Source of the DNA: a virus
Taxonomy: Duplodnaviria; Heunggongvirae; Uroviricota; Caudoviricetes
DNA length: 12,974 nt
Direction: 5' to 3' (one strand)
Virus record (IMG/VR): IMGVR_UViG_2648501669_000022
Span: 1 to 12,974 of that record
Part shown: piece after piece, positions 1,216 through 12,974 of the stretch
How the letters are laid out: each line of letters starts with the position of its first letter
Position numbering within the stretch: the first letter of the stretch is position 1
The notes under the pieces: model-generated
What the model was told of the DNA's origin: nothing
Seen by the model: the letters and a program-made list of their open reading frames with translations, nothing else
Database searches by the model: none
Program-made: the position numbers and the translations under genes

Positions 1216-1343
1216 CTGGTTGAGTATACAGTAGTAGACTTTGAGCGACGAAAGAAAAGGCTGTGTCTAGGGTCGCTCCCGAAAATCCGTACACCTCGAC
1301 GGACTGGTACAGCCACTACAGTAGAGGACGCTGAGGTGTGCGT

Positions 1344-2643: not shown

Positions 2644-3444
2644 ATGAAACTGCGAAAAACGCCCGTACAGGGGCAGGGCTTCGTTCGGCCTGAAAACCAG
2701 AATCTGCAAAATTTCGGCGAAATTATCCCGATTATTTCCGGCGTTATTGGCGGGAGTGAAACCACTATTGTTAGCGCCAGAGCGTTACATAAGGCGTTAG
2801 GTGTAGGGCGCGTTTTCCGTTCGTGGATCAAGGGGCGCATTGAAGAATACGGGTTCACGGAAGGCGTGGATTATGAGGTTGTTGAATATTTGAGCCGACC
2901 CGATCCGGTGAGCGCAAAATCTCGCCAGCAAACCGCTCTTGAGTACATCATCACAGTGAACATGGCGAAAGAACTGGCGATGGTCGAACGTACCGAACAG
3001 GGCCGCGCCGTTCGCCAGTACTTTATCAAATGCGAGGAGGAGCTACACAAGGTAGCGCCAGTGCGTTCCGCAGCGTTACGCCGGGAACTGAAAGCCCGTA
3101 TCACCGTTGCCAGCTACTTTAAGCCAATGTGTGCCGCGCTGGAGGCGTACCGGGCTGAACTGGGTAAAAACACGTTCCAGCACCACTACACCACGGAAGC
3201 CAATATGCTGGCGCGTATCGTGCTGGGTGGCATGACTGCAAAACAGTGGGCGCAGGCGAACGGCATCACAGGCGAACCACGCGACCACATGAGCACGTTG
3301 CAGCTTGAGCACCTTTCTTACCTTGAGCAGAGCAATATCACGCTGATTGAGTTAGGCCAGGGCTACCACCAGCGGAAAGCTGAATTAATTCGTCTTTCGC
3401 AGCGTTGGTTAGCCCGTCGCATGGAGGAAAACAGCCATGTGTAA
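2644..3444 (+). CDS. AntA/AntB-type antirepressor-like protein (N-terminal domain), C-terminal domain unknown
   Basis: 266 aa; N-terminal segment SARALHKALGVGRVFRSWIKGRIEEYGFTEGVDYEV resembles the AntA/AntB N-terminal domain as I remember it. AGGAG 5 nt upstream of the ATG. Confidence 0.6.
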   Translation: MKLRKTPVQGQGFVRPENQNLQNFGEIIPIISGVIGGSETTIVSARALHKALGVGRVFRSWIKGRIEEYGFTEGVDYEVVEYLSRPDPVSAKSRQQTALEYIITVNMAKELAMVERTEQGRAVRQYFIKCEEELHKVAPVRSAALRRELKARITVASYFKPMCAALEAYRAELGKNTFQHHYTTEANMLARIVLGGMTAKQWAQANGITGEPRDHMSTLQLEHLSYLEQSNITLIELGQGYHQRKAELIRLSQRWLARRMEENSHV

Positions 3445-3750
3445 CGCTCTGACCGTTACAAAAAGAAAAAGCGCCCCGTTGCCGGAGCGCCTTTGTGAAC
3501 GAATAGCCTACTGCGCCATATTGCTTACTGTCTACGAGGCAGATTATAGCGTTGTGGTCGCACAGAGTGAAGGCGCAGATCACCGTTACTACAGCACACC
3601 AGAAATGCAGAATATTTTGCTGCAAAATGTCGTTGGCCACGCTGTCCGGAAAGCAAAAAATTTTGCTGGTGGCGTGACTGATACGATTTTTTCTGGTTGC
3701 TCGGTGCTGATCAACTTAACCTGGACTTATGTACAACATTGCAACTATTC

Positions 3751-3897
3751 CTACTTTAAGCTGAATGTAACTTTACCTATATCATTAGAGGTATGGTCGC
3801 GCTTGACCTCAATTTCACCATTTTGTAGCCCTGCTACAAAAAAATATAAAAGTGTCAATGTTGCTGCAATCAGTAACCATTTTCCAAAAATATACAT
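3751..3897 (-). CDS. Small membrane peptide (48 aa), not in the ORF track
   Basis: Translated by hand from the minus strand: MYIFGKWLLIAATLTLLYFFVAGLQNGEIEVKRDHTSNDIGKVTFSLK. One predicted TM helix at the N-terminus. Starts 21 nt downstream of the Arc-like stop on the same strand; AT-rich; weak SD-like AAGGG upstream. Confidence 0.35.
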   Translation of the reverse strand: MYIFGKWLLIAATLTLLYFFVAGLQNGEIEVKRDHTSNDIGKVTFSLK

Positions 3898-3918
3898 TCT
3901 TGATTTTACCCTTAATCG

Positions 3919-4092
3919 TCAACCTTTTGGCACGATGCCTCGCTGTTGTAATTCTTTGCGGAGCACTCGTTTAATCCAGGTAGCTAATGAGGTGTCGCCG
4001 TCTGCTTTGGCTGCCTCCTCAAGTTGTGCCCTAAATTCTTCTGGTAGCCGCATTTGGTATGGTGGCGATCGTTTTTCTAATGGTGTTGACAT
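3919..4092 (-). CDS. Arc/MetJ-type ribbon-helix-helix DNA-binding protein (57 aa), not in the ORF track
   Basis: Translated by hand from the minus strand: MSTPLEKRSPPYQMRLPEEFRAQLEEAAKADGDTSLATWIKRVLRKELQQRGIVPKG. Beta-strand-like PYQMRLP followed by two helices is the Arc/Mnt pattern. The start codon is embedded in a palindromic operator. Confidence 0.65.
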   Translation of the reverse strand: MSTPLEKRSPPYQMRLPEEFRAQLEEAAKADGDTSLATWIKRVLRKELQQRGIVPKG

Positions 4093-4144
4093 GGTAATTA
4101 CCCATAATTACTATAGTTACACGGTAATTACCATTGTACTTACC
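4093..4144. promoter_or_regulatory. Divergent promoter/operator region: perfect 10-bp palindrome GGTAATTACC x2 plus a degenerate third site
   Basis: GGTAATTACC at 4093-4102 (abutting the Arc-like start codon) and 4123-4132, 30 bp centre to centre; degenerate copy GTACTTACC at 4136-4144; TATAGT-like -10 for the minus strand at 4111-4116. Confidence 0.55.
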
Positions 4145-4228
4145 ATTGCAAAAAAAACAACGCCCCGGACTGCGGGAACAGTACCAGGGCGTCTAACCAC
4201 CAACGATAGCGAAAGTATCGAGGTAGCT

Positions 4229-4432
4229 ATGATAAATCATACCACACACCCGCAAGGGCGGGACTCGCACAACCTGAATAAATACATCTGGCGTTTTATC
4301 GCCCTGAGCACGGCACAACCGCGCGTAATTCACATCGAGGCCACCAGCGAACAGGAAGCACGCCAGCAATCTCCTGATGGCTGCGTGATGGTATTCGCCG
4401 CCCGTATTCGCCAGGAGGTGCACCATGCATAA
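4229..4432 (+). CDS. Hypothetical protein (67 aa), first gene of the replication operon
   Basis: This is only the 3' part of the 331-aa track ORF (3437-4432). ATG at 4229 with GAGGT 4 nt upstream; the upstream 800 nt of that ORF overlaps the Arc-like gene and the intergenic region and translates to low-complexity sequence. Stop overlaps the next start. Confidence 0.5.
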   Translation: MINHTTHPQGRDSHNLNKYIWRFIALSTAQPRVIHIEATSEQEARQQSPDGCVMVFAARIRQEVHHA

Positions 4433-4790
4433 CCTGTCAATTTCTGACCTTAACAGCATTCAGTTTGATGAGAAATTTACCGGGCAGCTACTGGTCAATG
4501 TGGAGAATGGACGCGTGGTAAGTAATTACCACCTGCCGGATGGTGCAATTGCCGGAAGTGTTGAAGCATTGCTGGAGCTGGCAGAACGTGCGCGACTGAT
4601 TAAGCCGTCAACGTGCCATCACGATGATGATCTGCATTTTACCGGACGCATGGTGAGTCACTACGAAAACGGCGTTGAGGTATCCCGCGAACGTATGCGT
4701 GATAATTGCTGTTTCGGAACACTGCCGGAATTTATCGAATTGCTGACCAGTTGCGGTTATCAGGTTATTCAGGGGGTGAATCATGGATAA
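4425..4790 (+). CDS. Hypothetical protein (121 aa) made of two tandem copies of a ~50-aa FTG-motif domain
   Basis: AGGAGGTG 4 nt upstream of the ATG. Internal repeat: FTGQLLVNVENGRVVSNYHL... and FTGRMVSHYENGVEVSRER.... Start and stop both overlap neighbouring genes. Confidence 0.6.
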   Translation: MHNLSISDLNSIQFDEKFTGQLLVNVENGRVVSNYHLPDGAIAGSVEALLELAERARLIKPSTCHHDDDLHFTGRMVSHYENGVEVSRERMRDNCCFGTLPEFIELLTSCGYQVIQGVNHG

Positions 4791-4983
4791 TCAGCAAGCA
4801 ACAATGACAATTACCCTGAGTGTGCCAGATGATTTCACCGGACGCGTACTGGTTTACCTGGATAAAGGGAAAGTGAAATCACAATGCCGACTGAAAAGTA
4901 ATGAGATTGTTGGTTCTCCTGAATTTTTTTCTGAACTTTGTATTCGTGCGAAAATAAAACCGGAACTGCTGACAGGAAAATAA
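4783..4983 (+). CDS. Hypothetical protein (66 aa), single-copy paralogue of the FTG-motif domain
   Basis: FTGRVLVYLDKGKVKSQCRL...GSPEFFSELCIRAKIKPE aligns with both repeats of the upstream gene; AGGGGGTGA upstream. Confidence 0.6.
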   Translation: MDNQQATMTITLSVPDDFTGRVLVYLDKGKVKSQCRLKSNEIVGSPEFFSELCIRAKIKPELLTGK

Positions 4984-4987
4984 AACC

Positions 4988-5278
4988 ATGAAAAAGAAAA
5001 ATTCTGGCTTTACTGCCAGCGGCCCCGCTCGGCCTGAAATCAGACACGGAGATATTTACCGCGACACCAGACGTGGGGGACGAGTGGTTATTCGTCACGT
5101 TACGCCAGGCAATATCACCTACCGCCGTGAGGCTTACGAATATGACTGCGTAATGCCGCGCCGTCAGTTTGAGCGTGATTTTATTCTGGTGGAAAACAAA
5201 CAACAGGCGGTGGCAAGACGTGCAGCCACGAATATTAAAAAAATCCGGGCAATGTTGGTTGCGGGAGGTAAGAAGTGA
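4988..5278 (+). CDS. Hypothetical basic protein (96 aa)
   Basis: ORF with AGGAAAA upstream; stop overlaps the GTG start of the helicase gene. No family recognised with confidence. Confidence 0.5.
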   Translation: MKKKNSGFTASGPARPEIRHGDIYRDTRRGGRVVIRHVTPGNITYRREAYEYDCVMPRRQFERDFILVENKQQAVARRAATNIKKIRAMLVAGGKK

Positions 5279-6687
5279 AAAACGCACCGAATTTGAAATA
5301 TCAGCCGAAGGATAAATTCACTGAGGTAATCATTTTTGCCGGGACGGACGCTTACTCCCATGCTCAACACTGGATTGAAAGCGAAGGACGGAAACACGGC
5401 GATAATGTGCCACCTGTTTACCTGGGGCCAAAGCAACTGGCAGACCTGGCGAATATCCGCATTATTGACGAGAAACGCCGCTTTGCACGTGTCTATCTCG
5501 CGGGGGAGATCGAACCAATCCAGATCAATGCTATCGCTGAAAAGCTGGCGCTGGCTGGCGTACAGGAGGCGAAATTATACAAAGGTATCACCGACCGGGA
5601 GCCGGAGAACTGGCGCGACTACCTGCAACGGATCCGCGAACAGGCAGAGCGCGAAGAAATGCTTACTGACGAGCAATACAGCCAGCGAAAAACCACACTA
5701 CCAATGAGTATTGGATCTGCAGGGTACGACACACAGCTTGATTATGTCGTTAAGGGCGTGATTCCGGCTAATTCATTGTGCAGCACATACGGCGCGAGCG
5801 GTTCCTATAAATCGTTCCTCGCGTGTTCCTGGGCGTGTCATGTTGCCACGGGTCGCCACTGGGGAGGCCGCAGGGTGGCGCATGGTTCGGTGATGTATGT
5901 CGTCGGTGAAGGTGGCATTGGTGTCCCTCGTCGTATCAAAGCATGGGAAATCGTTAATGATGAACGGGTGAAAAATCTGTACCTGGTAAACCGCCCGATT
6001 TTTCCGGCGGTCCCGCTTGATGTTGATGAAATGGTCATCGCTTCCCGTCAGGTTGAACGGGAAACGGGTAAACCGGTACGCATGATTATTCTGGATACGC
6101 TGGCGCGTTGCTTTGGCGGTAATGATGAAAATGACGCGCGGGATATGGGGGCGTTTATCCGTGGATGTGACGAACTGAAACGACGCACGGGGGCCACGGT
6201 ACTGGTGGTTCACCATTCCGGCAAGGATGAAACAAAAGGGGCGCGTGGTTCCAGTGCATTTCGTGCATCTCTGGACGCTGAATACCGTATTCGCCGTGAA
6301 GGTGCGGACAGTGAAGCCCTGGTTATCTCCTGCACCAAAATGAAGGACGCGGAGGAACTGAAAGAGGCTGCATATGATTTACGCGTGGTGGAGCTTTTTA
6401 CCGACACTGACGGGGAGTTAATCACGTCGCTGGTGGTTGTGGATAAGCCGCGCCCACCTGTTGAACTGGAACGCATCGAGGAGGCCGGGAACAAGACGGA
6501 AAATCACGCTGCGCTATGGCAGTGCATCAGAACGCGAACAGCACACGGGGAGGCGTGCACTATCGCCCTTCTCCGCGATGATATGAAAAAGCTGGGGTAT
6601 GAAATGAAAAACTTCCGGCGCTGGCTGTACAAGCTGGAAAGCGACGGCGTAATCGCTATTGACGGTGATTATGTGCGCCCACTGTAA
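5275..6687 (+). CDS. RepA/DnaB-like RecA-fold replicative helicase (the family I remember as AAA_25), probable replication initiator of the island
   Basis: 470 aa; GTG start with GGGAGGT 5 nt upstream. Walker A-like GASGSYKS, Walker B-like ILDTLARCF, and VLVVHHSGK motif typical of RepA-type helicases. Its stop abuts the iteron array. Confidence 0.8.
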   Translation: MKNAPNLKYQPKDKFTEVIIFAGTDAYSHAQHWIESEGRKHGDNVPPVYLGPKQLADLANIRIIDEKRRFARVYLAGEIEPIQINAIAEKLALAGVQEAKLYKGITDREPENWRDYLQRIREQAEREEMLTDEQYSQRKTTLPMSIGSAGYDTQLDYVVKGVIPANSLCSTYGASGSYKSFLACSWACHVATGRHWGGRRVAHGSVMYVVGEGGIGVPRRIKAWEIVNDERVKNLYLVNRPIFPAVPLDVDEMVIASRQVERETGKPVRMIILDTLARCFGGNDENDARDMGAFIRGCDELKRRTGATVLVVHHSGKDETKGARGSSAFRASLDAEYRIRREGADSEALVISCTKMKDAEELKEAAYDLRVVELFTDTDGELITSLVVVDKPRPPVELERIEEAGNKTENHAALWQCIRTRTAHGEACTIALLRDDMKKLGYEMKNFRRWLYKLESDGVIAIDGDYVRPL

Positions 6688-7153: not shown

Positions 7154-7696
7154 ATGGGGCAAAGCATGACTAAGCTGACCATTAACAGAAAACCTAAAGG
7201 CATTTACGGCACGCCGCAGAAAACGACGCAGGCGGCGCAGGAGCAGGATAAAACCACGTCGGCGCATAAAGTGATGCCCGGTAACCAGAAAGCGCAGCAG
7301 AAGCCCACAGGGGCGACACCGTGGCGGCATATGACCAAGCGCCAGCGCAAAAACCGCAGGCGCGTTAACCGCCTTATCGAACTGTGGCCAGAATTATTCA
7401 GCCGGGAAGCACCGAAGCCGCTTAAGGTGGGGATATTTGACGACCTGATGCAGGATCTCGCCGTCAGGGGGCTGGCATTCGGGCCAGGGGCATTACGTGC
7501 GACGCTGGCATCTTATGCGCAGTGTCCGCGCTATTACCGCGCCTTAATGGCTGGTGGGGTACGCTACGACCTGAAAGGCCAGCCGTGCGGCGAGGTGACA
7601 CCACAGGAACAACAGGACGCAGAAACGCGGCTGGTGGCGCTGAATGAGAAGCGCAAACGTCAGCGCCGGGCAGCAAAGGAGAAAACAGGCGCATGA
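7154..7696 (+). CDS. ProQ/FinO-domain RNA-binding protein with a basic N-terminal extension
   Basis: 180 aa; LIELWPELFSREAPKPLKVGIFDDL...RYDLKGQPCGEVTPQE parallels the ProQ N-terminal/FinO signature as I remember it (PLKIGIF.DL ... R.DLDG.PCGEL). The first ~70 aa are Lys/Arg/Gln-rich. Exact start uncertain (ATG 7154 or 7166). Confidence 0.7.
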   Translation: MGQSMTKLTINRKPKGIYGTPQKTTQAAQEQDKTTSAHKVMPGNQKAQQKPTGATPWRHMTKRQRKNRRRVNRLIELWPELFSREAPKPLKVGIFDDLMQDLAVRGLAFGPGALRATLASYAQCPRYYRALMAGGVRYDLKGQPCGEVTPQEQQDAETRLVALNEKRKRQRRAAKEKTGA

Positions 7697-7980
7697 TTCA
7701 CGACAGCAAAGCGGAAGCACTGGAAGCGCGTGGTCTGTACCGGAGAGCGGCGGCGCGGTGGGCTGAGGTCATCATGCTGGCGAATGATGACAAGGCACGG
7801 GAACAGGCGGCAAAACGTCGCGCGGAATGTATCCGCAAGGCAGCACGCCCACCAGCAAGGCAGGATAATTTCGGGGAGATGCGCGAAACCATCAGCCGGG
7901 CACATGCCGGGATGGGATTACATCAGCCCAATGGTAAGGCATTCAGGAAATACCCTGGATCGAAAAATTGCAGTCAGTGA
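7693..7980 (+). CDS. PerC-family transcriptional activator-like protein
   Basis: 95 aa; N-terminus MIHDSKAEALEARGLYRRAAARWAEVIM fits the PerC/Pch pattern (E..G.WRRAA.RW) from memory. ATGA overlap with the upstream stop; followed by tandem terminators. Confidence 0.6.
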   Translation: MIHDSKAEALEARGLYRRAAARWAEVIMLANDDKAREQAAKRRAECIRKAARPPARQDNFGEMRETISRAHAGMGLHQPNGKAFRKYPGSKNCSQ

Positions 7981-8355: not shown

Positions 8356-8394
8356 TGGTCGTGATTTTTTGGTGAAAAAAGAGAGGTGATAAAA

Positions 8395-8973
8395 ATGCCA
8401 GCAAGCAAAGAAGATTTGCGATTAAAACTGATGGAGGTGGTTAACGCTCTGTCAGAGTCGCAGGGCAGCACTCCGCAGGAGATTATCGAAATTCTGAATG
8501 CGATCCCCGCACAGGATTTCATAAAAGAGGATAACGCTAATCAAAACATCGTCGCGTCAGTCGAAGATGAATCCTCACTGGCAGAAGCCCAGGCTAAAGC
8601 AGATTCCGCATACAGCAATATGGGCCGTCGCGCTCCAGCCCCGTTTGCTGGTGAAAAGTCGATGGATTACCGCAAGCGTGCATTAATTGGTGCACAGAAG
8701 CTGGCTAAAAAATTCAGTGATGTGGATATTCGTTCCGTTTCAGATTCTGCAACGCTGGCGGTGCTGGAAGATCAGATTTACCAGGCTGCAAAAGACAGTG
8801 TTCAGTGGGCCGTGGAAAACACGCCGGGCCATTTGGGTAAAACCGTAAGAATGGATGAAGCTGGTCGTCGTATTACTGAATATCAGGGCGATCCGAACGT
8901 CTGGCTGAACGCCTTCAAAATCCCTCCCCGTCGCCTGGTCAAAATTAACACTGCAAGCCTCGCGGGGGCATGA
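8395..8973 (+). CDS. Hypothetical protein (192 aa), acidic helical N-terminal half
   Basis: ATG at 8395 with GAGAGGTG 6 nt upstream (the track's 8386 start is a GTG inside the SD). No family recognised. Confidence 0.6.
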   Translation: MPASKEDLRLKLMEVVNALSESQGSTPQEIIEILNAIPAQDFIKEDNANQNIVASVEDESSLAEAQAKADSAYSNMGRRAPAPFAGEKSMDYRKRALIGAQKLAKKFSDVDIRSVSDSATLAVLEDQIYQAAKDSVQWAVENTPGHLGKTVRMDEAGRRITEYQGDPNVWLNAFKIPPRRLVKINTASLAGA

Positions 8974-8990
8974 AAAACGTGCTGAGTTCA

Positions 8991-9021
8991 GCCCTGCCGG
9001 ATTTGGCGGGGCTTATTGCTT
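8991..9021 (+). promoter_or_regulatory. Intergenic stem-loop with U-rich tail (weak terminator or attenuator)
   Basis: Stem GCCCTGCC (8991-8998) / GGCGGGGC (9005-9012) with one G-U wobble, loop GGATTT, then TTATTGCTT. Confidence 0.35.
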
Positions 9022-9037
9022 ATAACCGGATAACATT

Positions 9038-9709
9038 ATGCTTTTAACAGAAATTGAGGCGGCAAAGCAGATTCGGGACGGTCAGCTACCGTCGCCTTAT
9101 CAGTTTTCCAACATGTGGCTGGTTAACCTGCGTATTACAGGAACCGGTATGGCCTACCGCGCCGAAGAAAAAGAATTTGTCTGGCGTTCACCGCAAACTT
9201 ATCTCAATCCGCAGTTCCTGGAACGTTGCGCCGGAGTACCCGTCATTATCGACCATCCCGAAGGCAAAACCATTGAAGACGTTGGCGAACGGTCGCGCAT
9301 TATTGGCACCGTCATGTTGCCGTATATTCGCGGTGACGAGGTGTGGGGTGTATGCCGGATTTACGGGCAGGAAATCATCGATTACATCCAGAAAGCACGG
9401 GGGGAGGTATCCACCAGCCCGTCGGTTGTGTTTTGTGGTGCGTCCGGTGGGGCAGAAGTTCCTGATGTAATGGGCGAGGACAATTTTTTCATTGAGGGTA
9501 CGCCATTCCTTATCGATCACGTTGCGCTCGTGCCGCTTGGTGTTTGGGATAAGGGCGGGAAACCATCGGGTGTGGAGGTAACAACGCCGACAGCAGAAGA
9601 ACAGCTCGCCGGAATGGTCCGGGACGTTATTGATGCGGCCTGCAAGCCAGCCCTGGAAAAACTGGAAGAAATATCCGGGCGGCTGGCTCAACTGGAAAAA
9701 ACAGAGTGA
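9038..9709 (+). CDS. Hypothetical protein (223 aa); weak resemblance to HK97-type prohead proteases
   Basis: Size and a His (VPVIIDHPEG, residue 73) to Ser (GEVSTSP, residue 125) spacing of about 52 aa recall HK97-family prohead proteases; this is memory of motif shape only. C-terminus is coiled-coil-like. Confidence 0.55.
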   Translation: MLLTEIEAAKQIRDGQLPSPYQFSNMWLVNLRITGTGMAYRAEEKEFVWRSPQTYLNPQFLERCAGVPVIIDHPEGKTIEDVGERSRIIGTVMLPYIRGDEVWGVCRIYGQEIIDYIQKARGEVSTSPSVVFCGASGGAEVPDVMGEDNFFIEGTPFLIDHVALVPLGVWDKGGKPSGVEVTTPTAEEQLAGMVRDVIDAACKPALEKLEEISGRLAQLEKTE

Positions 9710-9716
9710 GTGAATC

Positions 9717-10334
9717 ATGAAAATTGCTAAAAACTTAAATCTGATTATCCCTGTGCGCACTGAAAAGGGAAATGGCTGGATCCATGCCACGCCGATCAGC
9801 AAAGAGGTGTTTAAAGAGCATTTCTTCATCCTGAGTAAAACCTTTTCTGCCATTTTTTCTGAAGGTCTTGGTGTTGTTGCGGGTCCGCGCGTTGCCTGCC
9901 TTATGCTGGAGAAAATCTCCCGTGACTCCGGTTTATGGGATGGGGAGAAAGGCATACGTAATACGCTCATAAACGAAATTATTCGCCTGGCAAACCTTGT
10001 TTATCCAGTGGAGGGCAAAGGCTACGACACAATCCCTCTCGATATGGCGCTGGAGCGTGAAATCGTTGATTTGGACGAAGTGGCGGGTGAACTTGTTTTT
10101 TTTACATGCGTCTCGTCGATAAATTCCCCGGAGCAGACGAAGGGGACTATGGATGCGGTGAATGGAATATGGAGCACTCAATGCTCGTCCTTGAGTCTTA
10201 CGGAATGGATCGCTTCATTGCCGACATTGAAGCCTGCCGTCAGTTCTGGCGCGACGGCGAACACGTCATCAGCGACATCCTCGACTACTCAGCCGGAGCC
10301 GGATTCAGAGACATCTGTGCAGATTCCGGTCTGA
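9717..10334 (+). CDS. Hypothetical protein; zero-frame ORF convincing only to about 10105, possible tail-assembly-chaperone-like gene
   Basis: GAGTGAG 6 nt upstream of the ATG. The first ~129 codons look protein-like; after the T8 run the zero frame becomes Ser/Thr-rich low complexity and loses the G-rich first codon position, which the -1 frame shows instead. Confidence 0.5.
   Translation: MKIAKNLNLIIPVRTEKGNGWIHATPISKEVFKEHFFILSKTFSAIFSEGLGVVAGPRVACLMLEKISRDSGLWDGEKGIRNTLINEIIRLANLVYPVEGKGYDTIPLDMALEREIVDLDEVAGELVFFTCVSSINSPEQTKGTMDAVNGIWSTQCSSLSLTEWIASLPTLKPAVSSGATANTSSATSSTTQPEPDSETSVQIPV
10097..10103 (+). other. Candidate -1 slippery heptamer T_TTT_TTT within a T8 run (10096-10103)
   Basis: Zero-frame codons are GTT TTT TTT. 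The -1 frame has a stop at 10088-10090, opens at 10091 and runs to 10399. Confidence 0.4.
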
Positions 10335-10399
10335 ATGTAAAAACAGCAGCTCAGTTTCGTGAGCTGCTCAAATTCAAGAATCCCGCAGGAGTATTGTAA
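10106..10399 (+). CDS. -1 frame ORF (97 codons from the ATG), likely translated as a frameshift extension of the upstream gene or as its own product
   Basis: Better codon-position bias than the overlapping zero frame; its stop overlaps the next start (TAATG at 10397-10401), indicating translational coupling to the 680-aa gene. Confidence 0.5.
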   Translation: MRLVDKFPGADEGDYGCGEWNMEHSMLVLESYGMDRFIADIEACRQFWRDGEHVISDILDYSAGAGFRDICADSGLNVKTAAQFRELLKFKNPAGVL

Positions 10400-12441
10400 T
10401 GTCAGGTAATCAGATGCCAGTTCTGACGCTGGACGTTAATGAAGAACACCTCAAACGGCTTGAGGCAATTTTTGAAAAGTATCGCAACGGGCTGATGATC
10501 GGCCCTGCAGGAACGCCGATGAAAATACCGGGGCAAAGTGGGCGCAGCGTGGGGGCAGGCTTACCCGTGGCGGCAAAATCTGGTCGGACAGGACCGGATG
10601 TATCCGGGAGAGTGAGGGACGAAAAAGGGCGCTTTGTCGGCAGTGGAAAAACAGCAGATTCGTTCGTAAGCAACTATAAAGGTCGCGGCGAAACGATGTT
10701 TGATAAGTATCTCAGCGGGCTGGGGAAAAATGCCCAACAGACGCTGAAAACTTACAAGCAGATCAATTCTACGCTACAGACGACCACTTCGAGATTAAAC
10801 AACCTGTTTAAAACAACCGTATCGTGGGGGACAAAACTTGCGGTTATGGGCGTTGCCGGGCCGTTTGGCTTTGGCATGATGTCTCGTAGTGTTGTAGAGA
10901 AACAGAAAAATGCAGATGAGCTGGTGGCAACGCCGGGAGAATTAAAGGCGGCAGAGAGTACCTATTCACCTTATTTTTCCGGTGTTGGCAATGTGCTCAA
11001 TACACTGGCAGCCGCGCAAAATGATCAAGAACACCCCGCCCGCGTTGGCCTGCTTCATCTGGGGATTAATCCTGATAAAAACGCGACTGAAAACCTGCCT
11101 GTATTCCTGAAAAAGGTTGCAGAGCTGGCAAAGGAATATCAGGGAAGTGGTCTTACCCAGAGTATGCTCAGGGGAAGAGGGCTTGGATGGGTAAATTTTG
11201 GTCTTACTAACCAGTTAGTCAAATATCAGGACAAAATACCTGAACTCAACAAAGAGTTTTCGTTACGTGCAGCGCAGAATGATTCGTTACTGACCTCTGC
11301 ACATACAAGTAAATATCAGAATCTTACCAGTAACCTGGAAAAAAACTGGGATCGGCTTACCAGCGGATTTCAGGGAGCAATGGCGGGGAATGAAGACGCT
11401 TTAATCAGAATGTCTGATGGTACCACGAATGCTGCCCTGAATTTCATGAATGGTGAGAACTTTAAAAGGATTCTGACTGATGTTGAAACGGGGCTGGATA
11501 AACTTGGTAAGTACGTTAATGGCCCGGATTTTAATAACGACCTGAACAATTTTGCCGAAAACGTTGCAAAGGTCACCAAGGCACTTAGCGGATTTGTTGG
11601 TTTTGCCGTTGAACATCCCTGGCTTTTTGGGGCCGCAGTGCTTGCGGGGCCATCAAGAGTTGGTGCCGTGGCAGCCACAACAACCGGAGTTGCCGCTCGT
11701 GTTGTCGGTGGAAGTCTTCTTGGGGCTACAGCCGGAACAGTAGCAGGATTGGCTATTCCTACAAATAACACACCTACCACCAGTGAGGAAATGAAAGGGC
11801 TGGAGGGGCGTTTCAACTTTGATTATTTTAACGAAGTGCAGGAGTGGCAAAAAAACAATCCGGGTAAGGTCTGGCCTGGAGGATTGCAGGGATTTTCAAA
11901 TCAAGTAAACAGATCTGCATATTTATCCAGAGGGATCAGGAATAACAATCCCGGAAATCTTAATTTCGCAGGACAAAAAGGGGCTACCCTGGAATCGGGG
12001 CCAAATGCCCGTTTTGCCAGCTTCCCGACGATGCTGGAAGGCATTGCTGCCTTAGATCGGCAGGTAATGCTATACCTGAAACGCGGCAAAAATACGATTG
12101 ATCAGATCATTGATATTTATGCCCCTTCATCTGATGGAAATAACACATCGTCCTATAAAAGCTATCTCTCTCAGTACACCGGTTTAGGTGTTAAGGAGAA
12201 AATTGATGGTTCTAATTTTGAGGTCATGAAAAAGCTAATTCAGGGCATTATTAACCATGAAAATGGTGCTGCCGCTAAAGCTGTAAGTGTTGAAGATGTG
12301 ATCCGGGCGCTGGCTATGAATCGTGGGATTGTCCCTACAGCAGGAAATAATAATCAGAACGTTAAGCTTGATATTCTTCAAAAACCAGGCTCCGACATAG
12401 TCGCTCAACTGGCCGGATTTTCGGGGCTTATGCCGAGGTAA
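10399..12441 (+). CDS. Large tape-measure-like protein (680 aa) with Gly/Ala-rich hydrophobic segments and a C-terminal NNPGN-motif domain
   Basis: AGGAG 7 nt upstream of the ATG. Central segment AVEHPWLFGAAVLAGPSRVGAVAATTTGVAARVVGGSLLGATAGTVAGLAIP; N/T/S/K-rich helical regions; C-terminal RGIRNNNPGNLNF...IYAPSSDGNN. The gene itself is well supported; the function is a guess. Confidence 0.7.
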   Translation: MSGNQMPVLTLDVNEEHLKRLEAIFEKYRNGLMIGPAGTPMKIPGQSGRSVGAGLPVAAKSGRTGPDVSGRVRDEKGRFVGSGKTADSFVSNYKGRGETMFDKYLSGLGKNAQQTLKTYKQINSTLQTTTSRLNNLFKTTVSWGTKLAVMGVAGPFGFGMMSRSVVEKQKNADELVATPGELKAAESTYSPYFSGVGNVLNTLAAAQNDQEHPARVGLLHLGINPDKNATENLPVFLKKVAELAKEYQGSGLTQSMLRGRGLGWVNFGLTNQLVKYQDKIPELNKEFSLRAAQNDSLLTSAHTSKYQNLTSNLEKNWDRLTSGFQGAMAGNEDALIRMSDGTTNAALNFMNGENFKRILTDVETGLDKLGKYVNGPDFNNDLNNFAENVAKVTKALSGFVGFAVEHPWLFGAAVLAGPSRVGAVAATTTGVAARVVGGSLLGATAGTVAGLAIPTNNTPTTSEEMKGLEGRFNFDYFNEVQEWQKNNPGKVWPGGLQGFSNQVNRSAYLSRGIRNNNPGNLNFAGQKGATLESGPNARFASFPTMLEGIAALDRQVMLYLKRGKNTIDQIIDIYAPSSDGNNTSSYKSYLSQYTGLGVKEKIDGSNFEVMKKLIQGIINHENGAAAKAVSVEDVIRALAMNRGIVPTAGNNNQNVKLDILQKPGSDIVAQLAGFSGLMPR

Positions 12442-12446
12442 TACCC

Positions 12447-12974
12447 ATGCTAATGAGTAAAGCAGAATATGCTAAACACAAAGGCGTAAGCCGCCAGACA
12501 GTTTACGACTGGATCGAGAAAGGCGAAGTGGTCATGTCCGGTAAAAAAATCGATGTGGAAGCGACAGAGCAGCGGAACAGCCCACCAGCACAGGAAAAAG
12601 ACACAGTTTCTGAAATGTGGCCAGAGAGAACGCTGGAAATGACGTGGGGCGAGTTCTGGAAAGCAGTTAAGGCCAGAGACGGTAAAATCCCTGCACCAGT
12701 AACGGACGATGACATACAGCAGCGTGTGCAGGATGCAGCCGGGGAATTAGGCTGGGAAGTGCACTTTCTTGATGATGGTGCTATCTGCCTTGAGGATGAT
12801 GAAGGGCAGCATTACTTTGAAAAATACAATTTGCGAGGTAATGCCAGGCTGGCAATTCGTATGCTGCGTTGCGAACTCTGCTATGTTGCAGGTGATTATC
12901 CCGATGAACTGGAATCATGGAGTGAAGCCGGGCTAAACGCCCTGGCTGAATGGGAAAAATCAGGCCATCAATGA
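12447..12974 (+). CDS. HTH protein (175 aa) with a Nu1-like small-terminase N-terminal signature; candidate TerS or packaging-redirection factor
   Basis: GAGGT 7 nt upstream of the ATG. N-terminus SKAEYAKHKGVSRQTVYDWIEKGEVVMSGKKIDVEA parallels lambda Nu1 (KKQLADIFGASIRTIQNWQEQGMPVLRGGGKGNEVLYDSAA) from memory. Acidic C-terminal half. Stop TGA is the last codon of the window. Confidence 0.45.
   Translation: MLMSKAEYAKHKGVSRQTVYDWIEKGEVVMSGKKIDVEATEQRNSPPAQEKDTVSEMWPERTLEMTWGEFWKAVKARDGKIPAPVTDDDIQQRVQDAAGELGWEVHFLDDGAICLEDDEGQHYFEKYNLRGNARLAIRMLRCELCYVAGDYPDELESWSEAGLNALAEWEKSGHQ

What the first reader, a model, noticed from the sequence alone, without database searches (positions are those of the whole stretch)
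4425..4983. A ~50-aa FTG-motif domain present three times across two adjacent, translationally coupled genes
The 121-aa protein is an internal tandem duplication and the following 66-aa protein is a third copy of the same fold (consensus roughly FTG-[RQ]-x-LV-x3-[ND]-G-x-V-x-S-x10-G-[ST]-x-E). Amplifying one small domain in front of the replication gene suggests a dosage- or oligomer-dependent function such as helper-phage interference, anti-repression or replication control. I do not recognise the domain.
Basis: seen in the sequence. Interest (0 to 1): 0.5.

Follow-up and report, generated by a model that had tools for sequence, protein, structure and literature searches.

The report
Triplicated small phage-satellite domain, function unknown
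Two overlapping small genes in an E. coli phage-satellite island really do carry three old copies of one ~55-residue domain; the family is widespread in temperate enterobacterial phages and their satellites, nobody has studied it, and it most likely acts as a protein-binding module switched on early after induction.

Summary
The 121-aa protein (4425-4790) holds two copies and the 66-aa protein (4783-4983) a third copy of one domain. No pair was matched by any of 5000 shuffles, and an independent profile, PHROG 340, hits all three copies. The genes overlap by 8 nt and sit in a tightly coupled operon: icd-like, FTG121, FTG66, DUF4222, RepA helicase. The island is PICI-like (int, AlpA).

The copies are old paralogues (40-50% nucleotide identity, separate clades), not a recent amplification, and are under purifying selection (dN/dS about 0.15-0.23). 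The local Pfam copy, NCBIfam, PADLOC, PDB sequences and fold searches give no match. Close homologues carry only the unnamed accession PF27490.

The family is restricted to Enterobacterales mobile elements. It occurs in early-left operons of temperate phages such as Fels-1 and LMessi, in satellites upstream of three unrelated replicases, and as the C-terminal domain of Bro-N and P22_AR_N proteins that PHROG labels anti-repressors. Tandem copies arose several times independently.

It fills the operon slot of P4 epsilon/orf151 but is not homologous to them. It is not an obligate partner of the neighbouring ParE-like gene.

Best guess, at about 0.35: an oligomeric protein-binding, antirepressor-like module rather than a replication factor. 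Interest is moderate.

The parts
4086..4114 (+). Sigma-70-like promoter candidate (TTGACA-17-TACTAT) for the rightward early operon. It faces away from the Arc/YlcI-like gene.
   Evidence: Consensus scan, 10 of 12 matches. This is a pattern match only; the number of sites found in the region is not above the shuffle expectation.
3919..4092 (-). Divergently transcribed Arc/YlcI-YnfO-like small DNA-binding protein (57 aa), a candidate regulator of the operon.
   Evidence: Weak matches, all below the curated cut-offs: Pfam Arc E 0.0064, NCBIfam YlcI_YnfO_N E 4.8e-4, PHROG 228 Arc-like repressor E 1e-6. RefSeq names the homologue a YlcI/YnfO family protein.
4229..4432 (+). Icd-like ORF (about 67 aa; one RefSeq record annotates it from 4067). 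It is the first gene of the operon and its stop overlaps the FTG121 start by 8 nt (ATGCATAA).
   Evidence: RefSeq calls the homologues 'host cell division inhibitor Icd-like protein', 121 aa in one record and 67 aa in another. PHROG 6196 E 1.4e-53. The mechanical ORF 3437-4432 is an over-extension of this gene.
4425..4610 (+). FTG121, copy 1 of the domain (residues 1-62).
   Evidence: Predicted as three strands plus a helix in the low-confidence 121-aa model.
4611..4790 (+). FTG121, copy 2 of the domain (residues 63-121, then the stop). It lacks the N-terminal leader strand, and the linker (residues 59-70) is predicted to be disordered.
4783..4983 (+). FTG66, copy 3 of the domain, encoded as a separate gene that overlaps the FTG121 stop by 8 nt (ATGGATAA).
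   Evidence: AlphaFold2 model with mean pLDDT 77: beta-hairpin at residues 22-36 and helix at 46-55.
4988..5278 (+). DUF4222 gene (96 aa). It starts 4 nt after the FTG66 stop and is part of the conserved cassette.
   Evidence: Pfam PF13973 E 1.4e-19. It is conserved together with the FTG genes in other islands.
5275..6687 (+). RepA-family helicase (AAA_25, 470 aa), the island's replication protein. Its GTG start overlaps the DUF4222 stop (GTGA).
   Evidence: Pfam AAA_25 E 2.8e-44. PHROG 2850 and 906. RefSeq names it 'helicase RepA family protein'.

Best explanation
What it is (shown). The three copies are old paralogues of a domain of about 50-60 residues: a leader strand, the F-T-G-R motif, a beta-hairpin with a Gly turn, a third short strand and an amphipathic helix. 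The family (PHROG 340) is confined to mobile elements of Enterobacterales. In this PICI-type satellite the two genes lie in the early rightward operon icd-like, FTG121, FTG66, DUF4222, RepA. Every junction is an overlap or a 4-nt gap, so the proteins should be made together, in fixed proportions, as soon as the operon is switched on.

How it most likely works (inferred). The domain is probably neither an enzyme nor a DNA binder. It is most likely a protein-binding module that works as an oligomer. Single-domain relatives would pair up, and the 2+1 arrangement here would give a fixed hetero-oligomer with several binding faces. It appears to be the same module that forms the C-terminal end of Bro-N and P22_AR_N 'Ant-like' proteins. 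In the satellite it stands where P4 has epsilon and (from my own knowledge) P1 has Ant after icd. My preferred mechanism is therefore antirepressor-like. Early after induction the FTG proteins would bind and neutralise a regulatory protein, most likely a repressor of a resident or helper lambdoid prophage and, failing that, a host factor. This would help the element commit to, or trigger, the lytic programme. It would not act on the island's own replication.
For: The copies are real, coding and under constraint:
- Shuffle statistics and an independent PHROG profile confirm all three copies.
- dN/dS is 0.14-0.23 for FTG121 across islands.
- 437 of 5426 complete E. coli genomes carry a match.

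The copies are old:
- 40-50% nucleotide identity in register.
- Copy 1, copy 2 and the 66-aa type fall in separate clades, together with distant 2-domain and 1-domain relatives.

Multiple copies recur independently, which points to oligomeric function:
- Two adjacent FTG genes in Pseudescherichia and Enterobacter prophages (L008, L018).
- Other 2-domain proteins: P0139, P0140, P0142, P0149, P0153 and the Buttiauxella L033 protein.
- In-register recombinants that keep one whole domain persist in populations: P0050, P0070, P0039.

The domain behaves as a module of Ant-like proteins:
- P0163 is Bro-N plus FTG.
- The Xenorhabdus 269-aa protein is P22_AR_N plus FTG.
- PHROG families 2379 and 4792, both labelled anti-repressor, align across the FTG region.

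The operon slot fits:
- P4 has the order cI-orf, eps, orf151, orf106, alpha with the same 8-nt gene overlaps.
- RefSeq names the gene just upstream 'Icd-like'.

Replication is unlikely as the role:
- The same cassette precedes three unrelated replicases at three attachment sites.
- In phages the gene lies in the early-left operon between the repressor and xis/int.

The family is mostly acidic to neutral (median pI 5.7, FTG121 pI 5.2), with no catalytic or DNA-binding family match.
Against: - There is no experimental information for any member of the family.
- There is no sequence or profile similarity to P4 epsilon or orf151. The slot argument is positional only.
- PHROG's 'anti-repressor' label for the fusion proteins may rest on their N-terminal domains and may not have been tested. 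Bro-N/KilA-N proteins have diverse roles.
- In temperate phages the gene sits in the operon that is expressed only after derepression. An antirepressor acting on the phage's own repressor would have little to do there, which fits a host-directed or cross-prophage target at least as well.
- The 66-aa copy and several relatives are basic (pI 8.7-10.2), so nucleic-acid binding is not excluded.
- The structural models are of moderate (pLDDT 77) and low (pLDDT 61) confidence. Oligomerisation was not modelled.
- In many E. coli and in E. ruysiae a 77-aa unrelated gene sits between FTG121 and FTG66. Direct coupling of the two genes is therefore not essential.
Confidence: 0.35

Rival explanations
1. 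Host-takeover inhibitor. The FTG proteins bind and block a host protein, for example a cell-division, recombination, protease or defence factor, as many small early-left-operon proteins of lambdoid phages do. Phages and satellites would share the gene because they share the host.
For: In Fels-1 and LMessi the gene lies in the early-left operon between the repressor and xis/int. From my own knowledge, this is the region where lambda-like phages keep kil, gam and cIII-type host-directed genes. A related phage region carries an annotated Kil. In the satellite the gene follows an Icd-like (cell-division inhibitor-like) ORF. The family is shared by phages and satellites. Most members are small and acidic.
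Against: No match to PADLOC, which covers defence rather than anti-defence proteins. No host-protein homologue or mimic was found in fold searches. This reading does not explain the fusions to Ant-type N-terminal domains.
Confidence: 0.25
2. Replication accessory. The FTG proteins and DUF4222 help the downstream replicase, for example as loader, ori-remodelling factor or copy-number regulator. This was one of the first reader's ideas.
For: The genes are co-transcribed and translationally coupled with the RepA helicase. In Buttiauxella a 2-domain FTG gene lies directly before a P4-alpha-like primase.
Against: The same cassette, at 94.9-98.9% nucleotide identity, precedes three unrelated replicases: a RepA helicase, a primase-family protein and a DUF927 protein. 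In temperate phages the gene is in the operon opposite the primase/helicase. Most family members are acidic.
Confidence: 0.12
3. Antitoxin-like neutraliser. The FTG protein is the partner of the 73-aa ParE-like (PF24732) protein encoded just downstream in many prophages, and the satellite carries orphan antitoxin copies to disarm the helper's toxin.
For: In 9 of 11 phage or prophage loci the FTG gene lies directly upstream of a ParE-like gene, and in the two loci where I checked coordinates (L019, LMessi) the two genes overlap by 29 nt. Some records annotate that gene as 'HigB-like' or 'mRNA interferase'. The hairpin resembles a MORN_2 unit; from my own knowledge, the MORN_2 protein YwqK is an immunity protein.
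Against: The ParE-like gene occurs without any FTG gene in 5 of 6 further phages examined: Fraca, ENT39118, ST405-OXA48phi1.2, BZS1 and sortkaff. FTG occurs without the ParE-like gene in Fels-1, Citrobacter L016 and all the satellites. In LMessi the neighbouring junctions in that operon also overlap, so overlap there is not specific evidence.
Confidence: 0.08
4. No function of its own: decaying filler ORFs kept only because translational coupling to the replicase needs something to be translated.
For: Deletion and fusion variants are common. An extra gene can sit between the two FTG genes.
Against: dN/dS is 0.14-0.23. The domain is conserved across genera at 30-40% identity with an intact motif. 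The surviving recombinants are in register and keep whole domains.
Confidence: 0.03

Closest known systems
PHROG family 340 (unknown function), with sister PHROGs 1813 and 2512; Pfam PF27490.1 is precomputed on close homologues
   Same: All three copies match the PHROG 340 profile, as do the phage and prophage relatives. Homologues that are 82-85% identical to the 121-aa protein carry PF27490.1.
   Different: The catalogue entry has no function, name or structure. The 2+1 arrangement across two coupled genes is not described anywhere I could search. PF27490 is not in the local Pfam copy, so I could not see its name or boundaries.
Phage P4 epsilon (helper derepression protein) and orf151, in the left operon cI-orf, eps, orf151, orf106, alpha
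   Same: Same place in the operon, between the immunity-region ORF and the replication gene. Same 8-nt start/stop overlaps between successive genes. Similar sizes: 95 and 151 aa against 121 and 66 aa.
   Different: No detectable homology by hmmsearch or BLASTP, and hhalign probability is 0.2% for epsilon. P4 epsilon is a single-copy, non-repeated protein. This island lacks P4's sid, delta and psu.
Ant-type anti-repressors with Bro-N, P22_AR_N or AntA N-terminal domains (PHROGs 2379, 4792, 524, 245)
   Same: Some members end in an FTG domain: P0163 and the Xenorhabdus L002 269-aa protein. From my own knowledge, in phage P1 the antirepressor gene ant directly follows and is coupled to icd, as FTG121 follows the Icd-like ORF here.
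   Different: FTG121 and FTG66 have no Ant N-terminal domain. The FTG domain is not P22_AR_C or any other named Ant C-terminal domain. The anti-repressor labels are PHROG annotations and I found no experimental test of them.
MORN_2 repeat (PF07661)
   Same: The hairpin part of the profile (positions about 16-46) repeatedly matches MORN_2 repeat proteins in the exhaustive search. Both are G-x...N-G-turn beta-hairpins.
   Different: Neither FTG121 nor FTG66 reaches MORN_2 even at E <= 1. FTG has one hairpin followed by a helix, not an array of hairpins. The resemblance may be convergent.
Early operons of Gram-negative PICI satellites (int, alpA, ..., pri/rep)
   Same: The window has integrase, an int-alpA RNA, AlpA, a replicase, and then packaging- and capsid-related genes. 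The FTG genes belong to the block in front of the replicase.
   Different: The satellite papers returned by my searches were not opened beyond title and abstract, and nothing I found assigns a role to these small genes.

Membership tests
PHROG 340 / 'FTG' domain family | Significant match of each copy to the family profile | tested here: met
   121-aa protein: E 2.6e-29 in 2 stretches. 66-aa protein: E 4.8e-17. Own profile: per-copy E-values of 2e-21, 2e-18 and 2e-27.
Pfam PF27490 | Score above the family's gathering threshold | not testable with these tools
   The accession is precomputed on P0022 and P0023, which are 82-85% identical to the 121-aa protein. The model is absent from the local Pfam copy, and those two proteins give no hit there.
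P4 epsilon / helper-derepression protein | Sequence homology to P4 Eps | tested here: not met
   hmmsearch with all filters off and BLASTP give no hit. hhalign probability is 0.2%.
P4 epsilon / helper-derepression protein | Position between the immunity-region ORF and the replicase, translationally coupled | tested here: met
   P4 coordinates show 8-nt overlaps at cI-orf/eps and eps/orf151. The window has 8-nt overlaps at icd-like/FTG121 and FTG121/FTG66.
P4 epsilon / helper-derepression protein | Binds the helper repressor and derepresses the helper prophage | not testable with these tools
   Needs an experiment or complex modelling.
Ant-type anti-repressor (Bro-N / P22_AR_N / AntA) | Ant-type N-terminal domain present | tested here: not met
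   No Pfam hit in either protein. Such domains occur only in fused relatives.
Type II antitoxin of the ParE-like (PF24732) gene | Cognate toxin gene adjacent, and the two genes co-occurring | tested here: not met
   There is no ParE-like gene in the window or in the satellite loci. The ParE-like gene is found without FTG in 5 of 6 extra phages, and FTG without it in Fels-1 and L016.
MORN_2 repeat proteins | Pfam PF07661 match, several consecutive repeats | tested here: not met
   No MORN_2 hit at E <= 1. Only one hairpin per domain.
PICI-type phage satellite (genomic context) | Integrase, AlpA and a replicase in one direction, no full phage gene set, chromosomal att site | tested here: met
   int 1-1215, AlpA 2369-2566, AAA_25 replicase 5275-6687. 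int-alpA RNA. Sister islands of about 10 kb lie between yicC and dinD, beside a tRNA-Gly, and beside abgR.
P4-like satellite (genomic context) | sid, delta, psu and an alpha-type primase | tested here: not met
   None of these was found in the window by Pfam or PHROG scans. BLASTP against P4 proteins matches only ORF88 to AlpA.

The most novel reading that the evidence does not exclude
The FTG domain is a structurally new, oligomerising antirepressor module. On this reading, FTG121 and FTG66 assemble into a three-domain hetero-complex that binds the CI-type repressor of a resident or helper lambdoid prophage. That would make it a non-homologous functional analogue of P4 epsilon, used by E. coli PICI-type satellites to wake their helper. 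The stand-alone phage versions and the C-termini of Bro-N/P22_AR_N Ant proteins would be the same repressor-binding device.
Probability: 0.15. Interest if true: 0.65.

Novelty: new variant of a known kind. Interest (0 to 1): 0.4.

Why it matters
The cassette matches 437 of 5426 complete E. coli genomes, including O157:H7 and ETEC strains, and related genes occur in Salmonella, Klebsiella, Citrobacter and Enterobacter prophages. No member has a known function, name or fold match.

How Gram-negative PICI-type satellites sense or trigger their helper phages is, to my knowledge, poorly understood. A small early-expressed protein module that also ends Ant-type proteins is a concrete and cheap candidate to test.

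If it proves to be a repressor-binding or host-factor-binding module, that would annotate a large PHROG family and a recurrent Ant C-terminal domain in one step. If it proves to be a mere accessory, it is one more small early gene and the finding is ordinary.

Tried and rejected
1. Curated family searches. The local Pfam copy, NCBIfam and PADLOC gave nothing for either protein. Scanning 39 diverse members against Pfam gave only Bro-N on one fusion protein.

2. PDB by sequence profile. Only noise, best hit phototropin at E 0.3.

4. The 121-aa model reached only pLDDT 61, so I did not use it for fold search.

5. Homology to P4 epsilon, orf151 or orf106: rejected.

6. A C4/cI-type antisense RNA in the operon leader. 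No Rfam hit at gathering threshold or at E <= 1 in 3400-5300, only noise.

7. Toxin-antitoxin pairing with the ParE-like neighbour: examined and rejected as an obligate pairing.

8. The search for related loci with three different alignments failed because no stretch was conserved enough. I replaced it with a degenerate DNA pattern for F-T-G-R-x3-x-x-[ED]-[NK]-G. That returned 41 loci, about 12 of them true and all from Enterobacterales-type elements.

9. tblastn of the 121-aa protein against GenBank phages found nothing. The phage members appeared only when a prophage-type single-domain query was used.

10. Literature searches for PF27490, phrog_340, DUF4222 plus phage, and Icd-like plus satellite found no paper on these genes.
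Full report
**1. The observation**

The window encodes a 121-aa protein at 4425-4790 (+) and a 66-aa protein at 4783-4983 (+). The second start codon overlaps the first stop by 8 nt (ATGGATAA), and both starts have Shine-Dalgarno-like sequences upstream.

I split the 121-aa protein at residue 62 and aligned the pieces with BLOSUM62 against 5000 shuffles:

| Pair | Score | z | Gumbel p |
|---|---|---|---|
| N-half vs C-half | 59 | 9.8 | about 2e-6 |
| N-half vs 66-aa protein | 80 | 16.1 | about 6e-10 |
| C-half vs 66-aa protein | 50 | 7.7 | about 3e-5 |

The shuffle mean was about 20, and no shuffle reached the observed score.

An independent profile, PHROG 340, matches the 121-aa protein in two stretches (E 2.6e-29) and the 66-aa protein once (E 4.8e-17). 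The triplication is therefore real. The invariant core is F/Y-T-G-R/Q, the Gly of a hairpin turn, and E-L in the helix.

**2. Genomic setting**

The window is a PICI-type phage satellite:
- tyrosine integrase (1-1215);
- an int-alpA RNA (1260-1327, Rfam RF02996, 45.5 bits against a gathering score of 35.8);
- AlpA (2369-2566) and an AntA-type protein (2644-3444);
- a divergent Arc/YlcI-like gene (3919-4092, minus strand);
- the rightward operon: icd-like (about 4229-4432), FTG121, FTG66, DUF4222 (4988-5278), AAA_25 RepA-family helicase (5275-6687);
- ProQ/FinO and PerC genes;
- a block with a DUF2213 protease-like gene, a 680-aa protein with a transglycosylase-like segment, and a TerS-like HTH protein.

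A promoter-like site lies at 4086-4114 (a pattern match only). The junctions in the operon are overlaps of 8, 8 and 4 nt plus one 4-nt gap.

A 98.9% identical segment lies in an island between yicC and dinD in E. coli CFSAN018748. RefSeq annotates both FTG genes there as 'hypothetical protein' and the upstream ORF as 'host cell division inhibitor Icd-like protein'.

**3. The family**

Word-seeded searches find only Escherichia, Salmonella and Citrobacter proteins, all called hypothetical or 'prophage protein'. Two close homologues carry a precomputed Pfam accession, PF27490.1. That model is absent from the local Pfam copy, so I could not read its name.

An exhaustive HMM search of 1.84 billion representatives with a single-domain profile gave 91 hits at E <= 1e-3:
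- Most are single-domain proteins of 58-95 aa.
- Some have two domains: P0139, P0140, P0142, P0149 and P0153.
- A few are fusions.
- The long multi-stretch hits are MORN_2 repeat proteins. The FTG hairpin resembles one MORN_2 unit, but FTG121 and FTG66 themselves do not reach that family even at E <= 1.

A degenerate DNA pattern scan of one genome per GTDB species returned 41 loci. The true ones come from Escherichia ruysiae, Citrobacter, Enterobacter, Superficieibacter, Pseudescherichia, Buttiauxella and Xenorhabdus, plus one record labelled Chryseobacterium.

With a prophage-type query, 12 GenBank phages carry the gene, among them Salmonella phage Fels-1, Escherichia phages LMessi and CharmingMan, and several Klebsiella prophage-derived phages. 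All annotate it as hypothetical. The 121-aa query itself found none.

**4. Structure**

AlphaFold2 on the 66-aa protein with 23 aligned sequences gives mean pLDDT 77. It shows a beta-hairpin (residues 22-27 and 30-36), a helix (46-55) and a short C-terminal helix.

The 121-aa model is poor (pLDDT 61). It repeats a unit of three strands plus a helix twice, with a disordered linker at residues 59-70.

**5. Age and dynamics of the copies**

- In codon register the copies share 40-50% nucleotide identity.
- In a neighbour-joining tree of domains, all first domains of 2-domain proteins cluster together. The window's second domain clusters with that of P0140. The 66-aa type forms its own clade with P0143, P0116, P0145 and P0144 (the alignment is short, so the tree is only indicative).
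- The 2+1 arrangement is therefore old and maintained, not a recent amplification.
- dN/dS for FTG121 between islands is 0.14-0.23.

Tandem arrangements arose independently elsewhere. Two adjacent FTG genes occur in Pseudescherichia (L008) and Enterobacter (L018) prophages, and a different 2-domain protein occurs in Buttiauxella (L033), P0149 and P0153.

In E. coli populations there are in-register recombinants. P0050 joins the leader of copy 1 to copy 2. P0070 joins the leader of copy 1 to copy 3. P0034, P0039, P0042 and P0048 are internal in-register deletions. The P0050 and P0070 junctions fall at the F-T-G-R motif, where the copies share TT(T/C)ACCGG.

In many E. coli, including O157:H7 strain F3113, the match spans about 786 bp instead of 559 bp. 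In E. ruysiae, where I read the ORFs, the extra sequence is an unrelated 77-aa gene sitting between FTG121 and FTG66, with the same 8-nt overlaps on both sides. Direct coupling of the two FTG genes is therefore one of at least two arrangements.

**6. Context in other elements**

*Satellites.* The icd-like/FTG121/FTG66/DUF4222 cassette precedes three unrelated replicases at three different chromosomal sites:
- a RepA-family helicase (470 aa);
- a DNA-primase-family protein (601 aa);
- a DUF927 protein (712 aa).

In Buttiauxella a 2-domain FTG gene lies directly before a P4-alpha-like primase and downstream of AlpA and a Bro-N protein.

*Temperate phages.* The gene lies in the early-left operon between the CI-like repressor and xis/int. 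The usual order is PHROG 1737 (120 aa), FTG, a 73-aa ParE-like protein (PF24732, E 4.9e-20), then PHROG 1886.

*Fusions.* P0163 is Bro-N plus FTG. A Xenorhabdus 269-aa protein is P22_AR_N plus FTG. PHROG families labelled anti-repressor (2379, 4792) align across the FTG part.

**7. Comparison with P4**

P4's left operon runs cI-orf, eps, orf151, orf106, alpha. It has 8-nt overlaps at cI-orf/eps and eps/orf151, just like icd-like/FTG121/FTG66 here.

The FTG profile does not match Eps, orf151 or orf106, even with all filters off, and hhalign gives 0.2% probability for Eps. The resemblance is positional only. No C4/cI-type RNA was detected in the operon leader.

**8. Mechanism**

*Shown:*
- a conserved, purifying-selected, non-enzymatic-looking small domain;
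- repeated independent multiplication of the domain;
- co-expression of the two genes by design;
- independence from the replicase type;
- modular use at the C-terminus of Ant-type proteins;
- mostly acidic composition (median pI 5.7).

*Inferred:* the domain is a protein-binding module that works as an oligomer. I prefer an antirepressor-like role, meaning that it binds a repressor or regulatory protein of a resident or helper prophage early after induction. The reasons are the Ant fusions and the epsilon/Ant slot. My confidence is about 0.35.

*Rivals:*
- **Host-directed inhibitor (0.25).** This fits the early-left location in phages and is nearly as good as the preferred reading.
- **Replication helper (0.12).** This is weakened by the replicase swapping and by the phage location.
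- **Antitoxin to the ParE-like neighbour (0.08).** The ParE-like gene occurs without FTG in Fraca, ENT39118, ST405-OXA48phi1.2, BZS1 and sortkaff. FTG occurs without it in Fels-1, L016 and all the satellites.
- **Functionless filler (0.03).** Selection argues against this.

**9. Novelty and verdict**

The family is already catalogued as an unknown (PHROG 340, and PF27490 on close homologues), so the domain is not unseen. I found no function, name, structure or paper for it.

New from this analysis:
- the 2+1 arrangement is real, old and maintained;
- multiplication of the domain recurs independently;
- the domain is linked to Ant-type proteins;
- replication-specific and toxin-antitoxin readings are largely excluded.

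I rate it a new variant of a known kind (small early accessory proteins of phages and satellites), with moderate interest (0.4).

Noticed in passing
window 1260-1327 (+): An int-alpA RNA (Rfam RF02996, 45.5 bits against a gathering score of 35.8) lies between the integrase stop and the next ORF. It was the only Rfam hit above threshold in the window.
   Followed up: no
window 3437-4432 (+): The 331-aa mechanical ORF is an artefact. Only its last 67 to 121 codons correspond to the annotated Icd-like gene, and RefSeq records disagree on the start: 121 aa in one record, 67 aa in another. The promoter-like site at 4086-4114 favours the short version.
   Followed up: partly
L032 5195-5428 (-); E. 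coli hits H90-H98: In E. ruysiae an unrelated 77-aa gene (MRDDRFNSLKQEF...) sits between FTG121 and FTG66 with 8-nt overlaps on both sides. Many E. coli, including an O157:H7 strain, show an extra ~227 bp at the same position. The 169-196-aa proteins P0001, P0005 and P0008 are read-through fusions of FTG121 to this gene. The operon behaves like a chain of cassettes joined by ATGnnnTAA-type junctions.
   Followed up: partly
Phage and prophage loci L003, L019, L027, L030, L043, L048-L053: A 73-aa ParE-like (PF24732) gene, annotated 'HigB-like' or 'mRNA interferase' in some records, is widespread in early operons of temperate and some apparently virulent enterobacterial phages (65 GenBank phage records). 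It often has no recognisable antitoxin next to it.
   Followed up: partly
L013 (record labelled Chryseobacterium sp. 18061); Elizabethkingia phage EKP1; Aeromonas phage AsXd-1: Records attributed to Flavobacteriia or Aeromonas carry this typically enterobacterial gene block. Their ParE-like genes are 85-94% identical to the Enterobacter one. This suggests contamination, mislabelled hosts or very recent transfer.
   Followed up: no
window 7154-7980 (+): A ProQ/FinO-family RNA chaperone gene (E 6.9e-24) overlaps by 4 nt with a PerC-family activator gene (E 2.2e-32). The pair is conserved in the sister islands.
   Followed up: no
window 2644-3444 (+): The AntA-type protein's C-terminal part (residues 172-254) matches PADLOC candidate defence family PDC-S22 (E 1.8e-9). 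P0052 is a natural or assembly-derived fusion of this AntA N-terminus to FTG copy 2.
   Followed up: no
window 8386-12974 (+): The right half of the window holds a DUF2213 protease-like gene (9038-9709), a 680-aa protein (PHROG 7694) with a segment resembling tape-measure, endolysin and transglycosylase proteins, and a TerS-like HTH protein cut by the window end. These suggest a packaging or capsid-related module of the satellite.
   Followed up: no
One search hits P0155, P0158, P0169, P0176, P0191, P0205: The single-domain FTG profile picks up MORN_2 repeat proteins through its hairpin region. This is either a remote relationship or a convergent G...NG hairpin.
   Followed up: partly
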